Positions 35,635 through 38,580 of a DNA stretch of 64,000 nucleotides are shown here, piece by piece (the stretch's first letter is position 1; the number at the start of each line of letters is the position of its first letter). The notes under the pieces were generated by a model, which was not told the origin of the DNA, did no database searches, and was given only the letters and a program-made list of their open reading frames with translations. The stretch is from Dictyostelium discoideum (Eukaryota): assembly GCA_000004695.1 (NCBI GenBank), contig CM000152.2, forward strand, positions 4,608,001-4,672,000. Direction: 5' to 3'. The position numbers and the translations under genes are program-made.

Positions 35635-38580
35635 ATGAAAATATTATATTCATTATTATTAATATCAAGTATAATTTTAAATACTGTATTAAATATTTCA
35701 TCACAAGTATATGATCAACGTATTTTGGCATTAAAAGGAAAATGTTATTTAGATTCAAATAAAAATGCATTGTATGATGAAGGTGAACCAGGATTTGGAA
35801 ATGTTGAAATTTCTTTAGGAAATGCAACTGATTATAAGGGAAATAAATATCCAATACGTTATTCATCTGCTGATGGTACATTTATATATGATGGATTAAC
35901 TCAACGTACAACTTATGAATTTACATTTACCAATCCAAAAGATTATTACTTTGAAACCTATGAAAAGACATTGGCTTGTCCACCAGGTGTACCATGTATT
36001 CGTCCAACGGTTTCAGCTGATAATTTGGCAGCAGATCTTTTAGTTGCAAATACCTTTGCCTATAACATTCCATTGATTAAACAAGTTGGTGTTTCATCAG
36101 GCTCATCTATACTTACAGTTAGAATTAGTGTTGATTTGGGTTATGTTGAGCAAACTCAACCACCAACTCAACCACCTACTCAACCACCTACTCAACCACC
36201 AACACCTCCACCATTTACTGGTAGTGCCGTCGCTGGTTTATTATTTACCGATATCAATGGTAATGGAATTTTTGATGGAAGAGATGTTTGGACATCAAAT
36301 GTATCGGTTGGATTATATAATTTCAATGATAAAACCAGAGCACTCGATGTAAATGGTAATGTTATTTCATCAATTACTACCGATGCTAATGGTAGATATG
36401 CATTTGAAAATGTTGCCAATGGTGTTTATTGTTTATGGATGGAAGGTACAAAATATTTCAATCCAGGTTGCGTTGGTAGAATTGAAATCAACTCTGCAAC
36501 AATGCCAAAATCAGTTGCATCAGATGGTGTTCAATCACCAACCATTTTAAGAGCTGGTTCATTTAGTCTTTTCCTTACTGGTAATTCTGGATATGGTGGT
36601 TATGCATACAATGACATAGACCTCAATGGATATTTGAGTAGTAGAGATCAAGGTATCGCTGGTATTATTGTCAAGATTTACCTACCAGTTTATAATTTCC
36701 TCTTTGGAACCGTTACAACCGATTCAAATGGTAGATGGTCATTCAGTGGTTTACAACCAGGTTTCCCAGTTAGAATTGAGTTTGTAATTCCAAATGATTT
36801 CACTTCAACTGGTGCAAATTTGGTAAATTTCGTAACAGTTGGTCAATCTATTGACTTAAGCATTGGTTTGATTCCAAAATCTTTAACTGGTGTAAATGCA
36901 GGTCCAAGTAATCCAAAATCATTTGTTACCACCTGTTTTGTTAAAGGTTCATACAATGGTAAATATAAAGATGAGCCAACAGTTGTTGAAATTAACAAAG
37001 ATGCACAAGGTAAAGCATATGCTCAACAATCAGCTGACTATATGAAGGTATTGGCAAGTCATAAAGATACCGGTTCAGTTCATGGTGTTGCTTTTAATCC
37101 AGATAATGGTGATAAGTTTGTATCATCTTATCATAAGACAAACTCTGATTTTGGTCCATCAGGTAGTTGTGCAATTTATAAACTTTCAAGTGGTATCATT
37201 ACAACACATGTTAACTTTAATGATGTATTTGGTAAATCCTATTGTGGTGGTTATGCACATTACTTTGATTTCCGTGAAATATCAACTGCTGGTCCATTAG
37301 TTGGTAAAGCAAGTCTTGGTCAAATGACCTATTACAACAAGAAACTCTATGTAACCAATCTTGGAAAGAATGAAATTTTGGTTGTACCAATTTATCAAAA
37401 TCCAAATGCAACCAATGTTGAAAGAATTCCAGTTGCAAATCCAGGTTGTAGTAGTGGTGATGATTGGCACATTTTCCCAGTTACAGTATTCCAAGGCGAG
37501 CTATTCACAGGTGGTGTTTGTTCTGGTGAAAAAGGTAGTAGATTATCAACCTATATTCTAAAGTATAATCCAAATAGTAAATCATTTTCAACTGTTCTCT
37601 TCTATACACTCGGTTATGCAAGAGGTTGTCGTTATCTTGATTCATTTGGAAGTTGTGTATCAAGTGTTTGGCAAAAATGGTCAAATAATGATTCTCCTCA
37701 AGCATTGTTATCAACTATTATTTTCGATGTTAGTGGTCATCTCATTATGGCATACAAAGATCGTTCAGGTGATATTTCAGCAGTTGTTTCAGCACCAGAA
37801 CTTTTGATTGCATGTTTAGGTACTGATGGTCTTTTCTATTTGGAGAGTGGAGGTAAATGTGGTAGTCTTGTTGGTGCCGGAGTTGATCAAAAATCACTCA
37901 CTGGTCTTAGATATGGTCCAGGTAATGGTAATTTCTTTGATAATCATAAAACAGGTCTTCATGACTATACCAATGCTTTTGGTGCAACTAAAGGTGGTCG
38001 TGATATTATTGTTACAACTGGTTTCGATTACTATGAAGCATTTGAAGGTTCAATTCGTTGGTATAATGCAACCTCTGGTAAACAACTAAAAGGTTACTCT
38101 TTATATATAACCTCTTCAAATGGTCGTACCCCATCTCCAACCTTTGGTAAACAAAATGGTCTTGGTGATATTACTTCAGTGTATGATTCTTCTCTTCCAC
38201 AATATCGTGTTGGTAGAGTTTGGCTTGATATAAATGGTAATGGTATTCAAGATGCTGGTGAACCTGGTATTTCAGGAATCACAGTATTCTTAATCTATGG
38301 TCAACAATCAACTCCAACAAGTCAAACTGTATCCGATTCAAATGGTTATTTCAAATTTGAAGTTGATTTCAGTTCAAATTATTATTGTGTAATTCCTGTT
38401 GCATTCTTCCAAGCTGGTTCTTCCATTACAATGAGAAATGCTGATCCAACTCATCCAAATACAAATAGTGATGCTTTCTTATCAACTGTTGATAATGTTT
38501 ATGTCACTTCTTTTACTTCTTCTGATGCTGGTGGTTATTATTTTAATGGTTGTTCATTTGGTATTATTCCAAAAAAATAA
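35635..38580 (+). CDS. Secreted protein, 981 aa, with a signal peptide, at least four bacterial-type Cna-B / SdrD-B-like repeat domains (DxNxNG...D calcium-binding-type motifs), a PTQ-proline linker and a central domain of about 400 aa of unknown fold. Colossin-like.
   Basis: N-terminus MKILYSLLLISSIILNTVLNISSQ. Repeats: YLDSNKNALYDEGEPGFGNVEISL; LLFTDINGNGIFDGRDVW...TTDANGRYAFENVANGVYCLW; YNDIDLNGYLSSRDQGIAGIIVKIYL...TTDSNGRWSF; VWLDINGNGIQDAGEPGISGITVFL...SDSNGYFKFEV. Linker QPPTQPPTQPPTQPPTPPP. Confidence 0.8.
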   Translation: MKILYSLLLISSIILNTVLNISSQVYDQRILALKGKCYLDSNKNALYDEGEPGFGNVEISLGNATDYKGNKYPIRYSSADGTFIYDGLTQRTTYEFTFTNPKDYYFETYEKTLACPPGVPCIRPTVSADNLAADLLVANTFAYNIPLIKQVGVSSGSSILTVRISVDLGYVEQTQPPTQPPTQPPTQPPTPPPFTGSAVAGLLFTDINGNGIFDGRDVWTSNVSVGLYNFNDKTRALDVNGNVISSITTDANGRYAFENVANGVYCLWMEGTKYFNPGCVGRIEINSATMPKSVASDGVQSPTILRAGSFSLFLTGNSGYGGYAYNDIDLNGYLSSRDQGIAGIIVKIYLPVYNFLFGTVTTDSNGRWSFSGLQPGFPVRIEFVIPNDFTSTGANLVNFVTVGQSIDLSIGLIPKSLTGVNAGPSNPKSFVTTCFVKGSYNGKYKDEPTVVEINKDAQGKAYAQQSADYMKVLASHKDTGSVHGVAFNPDNGDKFVSSYHKTNSDFGPSGSCAIYKLSSGIITTHVNFNDVFGKSYCGGYAHYFDFREISTAGPLVGKASLGQMTYYNKKLYVTNLGKNEILVVPIYQNPNATNVERIPVANPGCSSGDDWHIFPVTVFQGELFTGGVCSGEKGSRLSTYILKYNPNSKSFSTVLFYTLGYARGCRYLDSFGSCVSSVWQKWSNNDSPQALLSTIIFDVSGHLIMAYKDRSGDISAVVSAPELLIACLGTDGLFYLESGGKCGSLVGAGVDQKSLTGLRYGPGNGNFFDNHKTGLHDYTNAFGATKGGRDIIVTTGFDYYEAFEGSIRWYNATSGKQLKGYSLYITSSNGRTPSPTFGKQNGLGDITSVYDSSLPQYRVGRVWLDINGNGIQDAGEPGISGITVFLIYGQQSTPTSQTVSDSNGYFKFEVDFSSNYYCVIPVAFFQAGSSITMRNADPTHPNTNSDAFLSTVDNVYVTSFTSSDAGGYYFNGCSFGIIPKK

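What the first reader, a model, noticed from the sequence alone, without database searches (positions are those of the whole stretch)
35635..38580. Secreted eukaryotic protein built from bacterial adhesin-type Cna-B / SdrD-B repeats
At least four domains carry the DxNxNGxxDxxE calcium-binding signature and the beta-sandwich spacing typical of Gram-positive MSCRAMM B-repeats (SdrD, Cna). These are rare in eukaryotes. The known dictyostelid exception is the colossin family, widely thought to be of horizontal origin. Here the repeats are combined with a PTQ proline linker and a large central domain of about 400 aa of unknown fold, under a eukaryotic signal peptide. It may be a matrix or sheath component or an adhesion protein.
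Basis: partly seen in the sequence, partly recalled or inferred. Interest (0 to 1): 0.5.

Follow-up and report, generated by a model that had tools for sequence, protein, structure and literature searches.

The report
Colossin-family secreted protein of bacterial origin
This Dictyostelium discoideum gene encodes a secreted protein whose core (an adhesin-type repeat, a six-bladed propeller and another repeat) matches a common bacterial surface-protein cassette; it belongs to the already-known 'colossin' family of anciently transferred genes, so it is real but mostly not new.

Summary
Window 35635-38580 (+) is one intronless 981-aa ORF in D. discoideum, with an N-terminal signal peptide, a PTQ linker and four SdrD_B (PF17210) domains (E 8e-40). 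There is no Cna_B hit.

The framing needs correction in two places.

(1) The gene is not separate from the colossins. Its Heterostelium album counterpart (48% identical, collinear) is annotated 'colossin C', and colossins are a published bacterial-transfer candidate.

The transfer is old. The gene has host codon usage (GC3 0.14), four-gene synteny with Polysphondylium violaceum, and copies in dictyostelid groups 2 and 4 that form one clade (100/100 bootstraps).

Function is inferred, not shown: Ca-stabilised B-domain spacers carrying a propeller binding head in the extracellular matrix. Interest is modest.

The parts
35635..38580 (+). Complete intronless CDS, 981 aa plus stop: colossin-family secreted protein (colossin C orthogroup)
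   Evidence: ORF. The exact protein is encoded on NCBI chromosome-scale record CM142509.1. The P. violaceum orthologue is 52% identical, also 981 aa and intronless. H. album 'colossin C' is 48% identical.
35635..35703 (+). Signal peptide, aa 1 to about 23 (MKILYSLLLISSIILNTVLNISS); cleavage site not predicted with a dedicated tool
   Evidence: Highest hydrophobicity of the protein; modelled as a helix at aa 2-19, followed by low-confidence residues up to the first strand at aa 30.
35722..36129 (+). R1: enlarged, divergent SdrD_B-like beta domain (aa 30-165) with an eroded Ca loop, DSNKNALYDEGE; the Cys115/Cys121 pair is dictyostelid-specific
   Evidence: SdrD_B 27.1 bits for aa 38-109, just under the cutoff when scanned alone. 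All-beta in the model. Homologous to the N-termini of P0001 and P0123. Cysteines.
36139..36219 (+). Pro/Thr/Gln linker (QTQPPTQPPTQPPTQPPTPPP region, aa 169-195)
   Evidence: pLDDT below 50 for aa 169-195. 12-bp tandem repeat, 4.2 copies, at 36153-36203. P. violaceum has a similar linker.
36226..36489 (+). R2: SdrD_B domain (aa 198-285) with Ca loop DINGNGIFDGRD and the TTDANGRYAF motif
   Evidence: SdrD_B 37.3 bits, E 3.4e-9. Aligns to an SdrD B domain in PDB 10ps_A. Motif. Followed by a disordered loop at aa 288-318.
36592..36870 (+). R3: SdrD_B domain (aa 320-412) directly preceding the propeller; Ca loop eroded (DIDLNGYLSSRD)
   Evidence: SdrD_B 44.5 bits, E 2e-11. Collinear with the N-terminal B domain of bacterial cassette proteins.
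36916..38184 (+). Six-bladed beta-propeller (aa ~428-850), a member of a large bacterial surface-protein domain family that has no Pfam or NCBIfam model
38200..38568 (+). R4: best-preserved SdrD_B domain (aa 856-978), canonical Ca loop DINGNGIQDAGE; Cys918/Cys973 pair conserved only in dictyostelids
   Evidence: SdrD_B 56.9 bits, E 2.8e-15, covering model positions 6-91 of 112. Aligns to SdrD B domains. Cysteines.

Best explanation
SHOWN: this is a resident, vertically inherited D. discoideum gene of the colossin family (colossin C orthogroup). Its core (SdrD_B domain R3, a six-bladed propeller, SdrD_B domain R4) is homologous as one collinear block to a bacterial surface-protein cassette found in many phyla. 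In the sampled tree the dictyostelid copies form a single clade. The gene has fully adopted host codon usage and keeps its chromosomal position between species. INFERRED (evolution): one ancestor of the dictyostelids acquired a whole bacterial SdrD_B-propeller-SdrD_B gene. It gained a eukaryotic signal peptide and lost the bacterial cell-wall or membrane anchor. New cysteine pairs appeared and the bacterial terminal cysteine pair was lost, as were about half of the bacterially conserved charged residues of the propeller. Extra N-terminal B-type domains were added, and repeat number varies between species. INFERRED (mechanism): the protein is secreted. The B-type beta-sandwiches act as stiff, mechanically strong spacers, with at least R4 and R2 binding calcium. 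The propeller is the binding head for an extracellular partner. The protein therefore most likely works as a structural or adhesive component of the extracellular matrix (slime sheath, stalk or substratum adhesion), as proposed for colossin A.
For: Identity and family: Pfam SdrD_B E 8e-40; H. album 'colossin C' is 48% identical and collinear; colossins are listed as a bacterial-transfer candidate and colossin A as a slug structural protein (PMC3188802); the family is counted as 5 members in D. discoideum (PMC4334915). Resident gene: the window contains exactly DDB_G0281495 of D. discoideum AX4; the protein is on a 6.43-Mb chromosome record; GC3 is 0.142, against 0.03-0.17 for all neighbouring ORFs except two retroelement-like ORFs at 0.37-0.39; the collinear order upstream gene / SCO1 / this gene / COG3 is shared with P. 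violaceum. Cassette homology: the propeller alone aligns end to end with Chloroflexaceae P0005 (E 1e-25); window aa 322-908 aligns with Chloroflexi P0159 aa 48-692 (E 1e-43); at least 561 confirmed loci occur in species-representative bacterial genomes of Chloroflexota, Acidobacteriota, Bacteroidota, Actinomycetota, Verrucomicrobiota, Bdellovibrionales and Gammaproteobacteria. Single acquisition: the four dictyostelid propellers are monophyletic in 100/100 NJ bootstraps, and their internal branching matches the species tree. Bacterial relatives are surface proteins: LPXTG/LPATG sortase signals, a MYXO-CTERM protein, and signal peptides. Remodelling: 14 of the 44 bacterial columns conserved at >=80% that gave a unanimous dictyostelid verdict are replaced in all four dictyostelids, including 6 acidic residues and the Cys423/Cys850-equivalent pair; five Cys pairs occur only in the dictyostelid sequences, four of them in all three aligned sequences and the 266/279 pair in two. 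Mechanics: SdrG/SdrD B domains bind three Ca ions and unfold only above 2 nN, and have been proposed to project the binding region away from the cell (PMC6232131); the Ca1 loop is intact in R4 and R2.
Against: No experiment or expression data for this gene was found, and no paper mentions colossin C. The Ca loop is eroded in R1 and R3, and the Ca2/Ca3 ligands could not be checked, so calcium dependence may be partial or lost. The propeller fold is shared by binding modules and by enzymes, so a 'binding head' is not proven. The donor lineage is unresolved: the best bacterial sister has only 41/100 support. The tree used only the 150 best profile hits plus earlier hits, with NJ rather than maximum likelihood. 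Other eukaryotes were not searched exhaustively. I could not confirm from a database record that this D. discoideum gene itself carries the name colC.
Confidence: 0.62

Rival explanations
1. The propeller is a secreted enzyme (lactonase, strictosidine-synthase-like, glycosidase or similar), and the B domains only space or tether it. The protein would then modify small molecules or polysaccharides outside the cell rather than act as a structural or adhesive component.
Confidence: 0.15
2. The protein binds bacteria rather than the amoeba's own matrix: a secreted, lectin-like or opsonin-like factor used in feeding or defence, inherited from adhesins of surface-attached or predatory soil bacteria.
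Against: Purely circumstantial: there are no binding data, no expression data, and no lectin family hit by sequence. Colossin A, the only member discussed in print, is linked to the slug stage, not to feeding.
Confidence: 0.15
3. The gene is ancestral to eukaryotes (or was transferred from amoebae to bacteria), not a bacterial import.
For: Host-like codon usage and conserved synteny show long residence. The tree is unrooted, so direction is not formally given by topology.
Against: At least 561 bacterial species representatives in seven or more phyla carry the cassette, and there are 4,445 clusters in all, whereas the only eukaryote-like sequences seen were four dictyostelid ones forming a single clade. 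Amoeba-to-bacteria identity (26% median, 32% maximum) falls within the bacteria-to-bacteria range (23-41%), so the amoeba clade is one branch within bacterial diversity. SdrD_B is otherwise a bacterial surface-protein domain.
Confidence: 0.03
4. Bacterial contamination or an assembly artefact in the amoeba genome.
For: The best non-dictyostelid hits are all bacterial.
Against: GC3 is 0.14, with AT-rich flanks typical of Dictyostelium. The same protein is on a chromosome-scale record and in independent sequencing runs. It sits at the orthologous position between SCO1 and COG3 in P. violaceum.
Confidence: 0.01

Closest known systems
Dictyostelid colossins (colossin A-D; H. album 'colossin C', EFA80808.1)
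   Same: A secreted dictyostelid protein built from bacterial B-type (Cna_B/SdrD_B clan) beta-sandwich repeats. It is 48% identical and collinear with H. album colossin C over R2, R3, the propeller and R4, and R1 also matches. The family is a published candidate for bacterial origin.
   Different: Colossin A is described as hundreds of repeats in a protein of more than 10,000 aa. This protein has only four repeats and is dominated by a propeller. Repeat number differs between species: 981 aa here and in P. violaceum, 1,341 aa in H. album. I could not test whether colossins A, B and D contain the propeller.
Bacterial SdrD_B-propeller-SdrD_B surface proteins (e.g. Chloroflexi P0159, Chloroflexaceae P0005, Herpetosiphon WP_164689784.1)
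   Same: Same domain order and junctions, covered by one collinear alignment across B domain, propeller and B domain. Both have an N-terminal secretion signal and PT-rich linkers.
   Different: Only 22-32% identity. Some bacterial proteins end in LPXTG or MYXO-CTERM sorting signals, which the amoeba protein lacks. The terminal Cys pair and six conserved acidic residues are lost in the amoeba, and new Cys pairs are gained. Many bacterial members are giant proteins with several propeller copies.
Staphylococcal MSCRAMM adhesins SdrC/SdrD/SdrE/SdrG
   Same: The B-domain fold family and the Ca1-loop signature are shared. B domains there are calcium-locked, extremely force-resistant spacers between the binding head and the anchor.
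   Different: There is no N2N3 ligand-binding A region, no Ser-Asp repeat region and no LPXTG anchor. The NCBIfam MSCRAMM_SdrD model scores 72 bits against a cutoff of 2,500. Here the head is a propeller instead.
YWTD six-bladed propellers of nidogen and LDL-receptor family proteins
   Different: Only 11-15% identity and no Pfam hit to the YWTD repeat family. The domain here is about 170 residues larger because of insertions, and there is no flanking EGF domain. This is a resemblance of fold only, not family membership.

Membership tests
SdrD_B domain family (Pfam PF17210) | Score above the Pfam gathering threshold | tested here: met
   Whole protein 136 bits against 29.7, E 8e-40, four stretches. 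As separate pieces, R2 scores 37.3, R3 44.5 and R4 56.9 bits (all pass); R1 scores 27.1 bits, marginally below.
SdrD_B domain family (Pfam PF17210) | EF-hand-like Ca1 loop, DxNxNGxxDxxE | tested here: inconclusive
   The strict motif is present only in R4. R2 differs at the last position (D for E). R1 (G to A) and R3 (three changes) are eroded. Ca2/Ca3 ligands were not checked, and no binding data exist.
Cna_B domain family (Pfam PF05738) | Significant match to the Cna_B model | tested here: not met
   Cna_B is not among the 8 families found at E<=1 for the whole protein, nor in the per-piece scans at E<=10.
MSCRAMM adhesins (SdrC/D/E type) | Full-length architecture: A region (N2N3), B repeats, SD repeats, LPXTG anchor | tested here: not met
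   NCBIfam MSCRAMM_SdrD 72 bits against a cutoff of 2,500; SdrC 49 bits against 1,700. The matches are confined to the B-repeat regions. The C-terminus ...GCSFGIIPKK has no LPXTG or hydrophobic tail.
Dictyostelid colossin family | Orthology or close homology to a protein named colossin | tested here: met
   P0123, 'colossin C [Heterostelium album PN500]', is 48% identical over aa 184-980, E 0, and R1 matches its N-terminus. Its propeller scores 544 bits against about 120 for the best bacterial one.
Dictyostelid colossin family | That this D. discoideum locus itself is the gene named colC in dictyBase/UniProt | not testable with these tools
   The exact protein is absent from the searchable protein collection, and no paper mentions colossin C or colC.
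Bacterial SdrD_B-propeller-SdrD_B cassette (unnamed family) | Collinear homology across the B domain, propeller and B domain | tested here: met
   Window aa 322-908 against P0159 aa 48-692, 27% identity, E 1e-43. Propeller against P0005, E 1e-25, end to end. Profile hits number 4,445.
Bacterial SdrD_B-propeller-SdrD_B cassette (unnamed family) | Family-wide conserved residues of the propeller | tested here: inconclusive
   Of the 44 columns conserved at >=80% in bacteria that gave a unanimous dictyostelid verdict, 30 are kept in all four dictyostelids and 14 are replaced in all four, including 6 acidic residues, 2 Arg and the terminal Cys pair.
YWTD / NHL / SMP-30 six-bladed propeller families | Sequence-level membership (Pfam repeat or domain models) | tested here: not met

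The most novel reading that the evidence does not exclude
The propeller is the only eukaryotic branch seen so far of a very large bacterial surface-domain family with no curated model (4,445 clusters at 50% identity; no Pfam or NCBIfam model; no close solved structure). After transfer it was re-engineered for the eukaryotic secretory pathway: the bacterial terminal cysteine pair and six conserved acidic residues were lost, and five new cysteine pairs were gained. Its binding specificity may have been kept from adhesins of gliding or predatory soil bacteria. The amoeba might then use it to bind bacterial surfaces or polysaccharide, making it a tractable entry point in a model organism to the function of the whole bacterial family.
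Probability: 0.15. Interest if true: 0.55.

Novelty: already known. Interest (0 to 1): 0.3.

Why it matters
As found, it mainly re-identifies a member of the colossin family, which has been flagged as a bacterial import since the D. discoideum genome paper. Two points go beyond what I could find in print. First, what was transferred was a complete domain cassette (B domain, propeller, B domain), not just repeat units. This makes it a clean example of whole-gene domestication, with gain of a signal peptide, loss of the anchor and rewiring of disulfides. Second, the propeller belongs to a large bacterial surface-protein family that the Pfam and NCBIfam copies searched do not model and that has no close solved structure. 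A genetically tractable amoeba copy could help assign that family a function.

Tried and rejected
- The word-indexed homologue searches missed the dictyostelid paralogues and most bacterial relatives. Only the exhaustive profile search found them, so absence from those three searches is not evidence of absence.
- The first genome-contig scan with alignment A1 failed for lack of a conserved stretch. It worked with a tighter bacterial alignment, A3.
- The AFDB Foldseek library was not available, so no organism-labelled structural neighbours or UniProt entry could be obtained.
- My first bootstrap run was invalid, because NaN distances arose from the Kimura correction at high divergence. I repeated it with capped distances.
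- Literature: nothing for 'colossin C', 'colC' or SdrD with Dictyostelium beyond an unrelated use of ddFLN4. The 2005 genome paper is not held.
- Expression: the three ~3.05-kb Logan contigs that carry only this gene end inside A/T homopolymer tracts that also exist in the genome, so they cannot be told apart from assembly breaks. I make no claim of expression.
- Bacterial gene neighbourhoods: clustering the flanking ORFs of 80 loci gave no recurrent partner gene. The largest cluster consisted of antisense shadow ORFs of the GC-rich repeat genes.
- Recent internal duplication of the repeats is rejected: R1-R4 are only 18-32% identical to one another.
- Contamination is rejected on composition and synteny.
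- I could not map conserved residues onto the 3-D model, because coordinates are not exposed. The location of the conserved polar residues (central tunnel or blade closure) therefore remains unknown.
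Full report
WHAT IS THERE. Window 35635-38580 (+) is one uninterrupted ORF of 981 aa, in a very AT-rich genome with polyQ and polyN tracts. The window is Dictyostelium discoideum: the ORF at 5870-7129 is exactly DDB_G0281495 of strain AX4. The 981-aa protein is encoded on a 6.43-Mb chromosome-scale NCBI record and in several independent sequencing runs.

CHECK OF THE OBSERVATION. Pfam finds SdrD_B (PF17210) at E 8e-40 in four stretches. Scanned separately, R2, R3 and R4 each pass the gathering score, and R1 is just under it at 27.1 against 29.7 bits. 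A solved SdrD chain matches at E 8.4e-12. The calcium-loop signature is present four times, but only R4 (DINGNGIQDAGE) fits it strictly. R2 is near-perfect, and R1 and R3 are eroded. Cna_B (PF05738) is not among the hits at E<=1. The staphylococcal MSCRAMM full-length models are far below their cut-offs, so this is B-repeat homology only. The PTQ linker (a 12-bp tandem repeat at 36153-36213, disordered in the model) and an N-terminal signal-type helix are confirmed. There is no hydrophobic C-terminal anchor. The four repeats are only 18-32% identical to one another, so they are old and not a recent duplication.

THE WHOLE CASSETTE IS BACTERIAL. A single BLASTP alignment runs from R3 through the propeller into R4: window aa 322-908 against Chloroflexi P0159 aa 48-692, 27% identity, E 1e-43. 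These come from Chloroflexota, Acidobacteriota, Bacteroidota (Arcicella, Spirosoma, Saprospiraceae, Neolewinella), Actinomycetota, Verrucomicrobiota, Bdellovibrionales and Gammaproteobacteria. Most match the query nearly full-length. The bacterial proteins carry signal peptides, and several carry surface-sorting signals: an LPATG sortase signal in an Anaerolineae member, an LPXTG anchor and a MYXO-CTERM name. The nearest named propellers are from Herpetosiphon. No recurrent neighbouring gene was found.

IT IS A COLOSSIN. Three other sequences match the amoeba propeller far more strongly than any bacterial one (594, 544 and 523 bits against about 120):
- the 981-aa P. violaceum orthologue (52% identity);
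- P0123, annotated 'colossin C [Heterostelium album PN500]';
- a 2,813-aa EukProt model with eight SdrD_B stretches.
H. album colossin C is 48% identical and collinear with window aa 184-980. Its N-terminus matches R1, and about 360 aa of extra repeats lie in between. Colossins (Cna_B in the older Pfam nomenclature) are listed among the D. discoideum candidates for transfer from bacteria, and colossin A is described as a slug structural protein made of bacterial repeats (PMC3188802). The orthogroup has 5 members in D. discoideum and is expanded in group 2 species (PMC4334915). I could not confirm from a record that this very locus is named colC.

AGE AND DIRECTION OF TRANSFER. GC3 of the gene is 0.142, the same as its neighbours. 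Both the D. discoideum and P. violaceum genes are intronless and 981 aa. The gene order upstream gene / SCO1(-) / this gene(+) / COG3(-) is collinear between the two species. In an NJ tree of 241 propeller domains, the four dictyostelid sequences are monophyletic in 100/100 bootstraps, with D. discoideum + P. violaceum (72) and H. album + the EukProt sequence (100), as in the species tree. The bacterial sister is unresolved (at most 41/100). Amoeba-to-bacteria identity (median 26%, maximum 32%) lies within the bacteria-to-bacteria range of 23-41%. Presence in group 4, the violaceum complex and group 2 implies acquisition before the deepest dictyostelid split; the placement of these groups is from general knowledge. 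Contamination, eukaryotic ancestry and amoeba-to-bacteria transfer are all very unlikely.

WHAT CHANGED AFTER TRANSFER. Of the 44 propeller columns conserved at >=80% in bacteria that gave a unanimous dictyostelid verdict, 30 are kept in all four dictyostelids. These include Y515, N575, C629, W679, W682, D709-R710, E737, D798, K839 and D845. The other 14 are replaced in all four: C423, R502, D549, D563, R612, P613, D694, G721, E766, E778, G782, G806, E847 and C850. That list includes six acidic residues and the terminal Cys pair. Cysteines 115/121, 665/674, 727/742 and 918/973 are conserved in all three aligned dictyostelid sequences and absent from bacteria. The 266/279 pair is shared only with P. 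violaceum, and Cys537 is also essentially dictyostelid-specific. I read this as adaptation to the eukaryotic secretory pathway, plus possible change of a metal or ligand site. This is inference.

MECHANISM (INFERRED). The full-length model (pLDDT 65, pTM 0.53) gives the following layout:
- signal helix, aa 2-19;
- R1, aa 30-165;
- disordered linker, aa 169-195;
- R2, aa 198-285;
- disordered loop, aa 288-318;
- R3, aa 320-412;
- propeller, aa 429-849;
- R4, aa 856-978.
Staphylococcal B domains bind three calcium ions, resist forces above 2 nN, and are thought to project the binding head away from the cell (PMC6232131). By analogy, R2 and R4 at least would be calcium-stabilised rigid spacers and the propeller the binding head. 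Without an anchor, the amoeba protein would be a soluble or matrix-incorporated component. The enzyme and bacteria-binding readings cannot be excluded.

VERDICT. The finding is a real feature, correctly spotted, but it belongs to a family whose bacterial origin is already in the literature. The additions are that a complete B-propeller-B cassette was transferred, and that the propeller belongs to a large bacterial family with no curated model. Interest 0.3.

Noticed in passing
window 48-3644 (+) and tRNA-Leu(UAA) at 5433-5515 (-): A 1,199-aa ORF with a reverse-transcriptase domain (RVT_1, E 1e-33) and GC3 0.39, far above the local norm of about 0.1. It ends about 1.8 kb from a tRNA gene, which looks like one of the tRNA-gene-targeted (TRE-type) non-LTR retroelements of D. 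discoideum.
   Followed up: partly
window 52471-53601 (+) and tRNA-Met(CAU) at 52155-52226 (-): A second ORF with atypically high GC3 (0.37) begins about 250 bp from a tRNA gene. It has no Pfam hit at E<=1e-5. It may be another retroelement fragment.
   Followed up: partly
window 34013-34444 (-), part of the gene at about 33311-34444: The upstream neighbour is the SCO1/SenC homologue (70% identical to the P. violaceum gene in the conserved part). In D. discoideum it carries a polyglutamine run of about 46 residues in its N-terminal exon.
   Followed up: no
window ~40095-43594 (-): The downstream neighbour is the COG3 (Golgi complex subunit) homologue, collinear with P. violaceum. It contains a long polyasparagine run, visible in the ORF at 40103-40576.
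   Followed up: no
P0131 (EukProt model 'gene9746-11971_t', 2,813 aa): This model joins an N-terminal leucine-rich-repeat protein (LRR_6, E 5e-38) to a colossin-C-like protein with eight SdrD_B stretches and the propeller. A signal-peptide-like segment sits in the middle, so it is probably two genes fused by the gene caller.
   Followed up: no
Bacterial proteins P0076, P0083, P0085, P0086, P0092 and others (~1,050-1,270 aa): A bacterial subfamily carries two tandem propellers with no SdrD_B domains, PT-rich linkers and what looks like a C-terminal von Willebrand A-type domain. The VWA reading is from the sequences by eye and was not tested with Pfam. The propeller is therefore a mobile module used in several bacterial architectures.
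   Followed up: no
window 14201-18769 (+) and 21488-25507 (-): Two large neighbouring genes: a 1,523-aa protein with a weak, sub-threshold vinculin-family match (E 1.5e-6, 27 bits against a cutoff of 38), and a 1,339-aa protein with a Rubisco-LSMT substrate-binding domain (E 2.8e-8).
   Followed up: no
window versus L001 (GCA_054883475.1, CM142509.1): The window and the newer chromosome-scale assembly encode the identical 981-aa protein but are offset by a 6-nt indel in the AT-rich sequence upstream, so they are different assemblies or strains of D. discoideum.
   Followed up: partly
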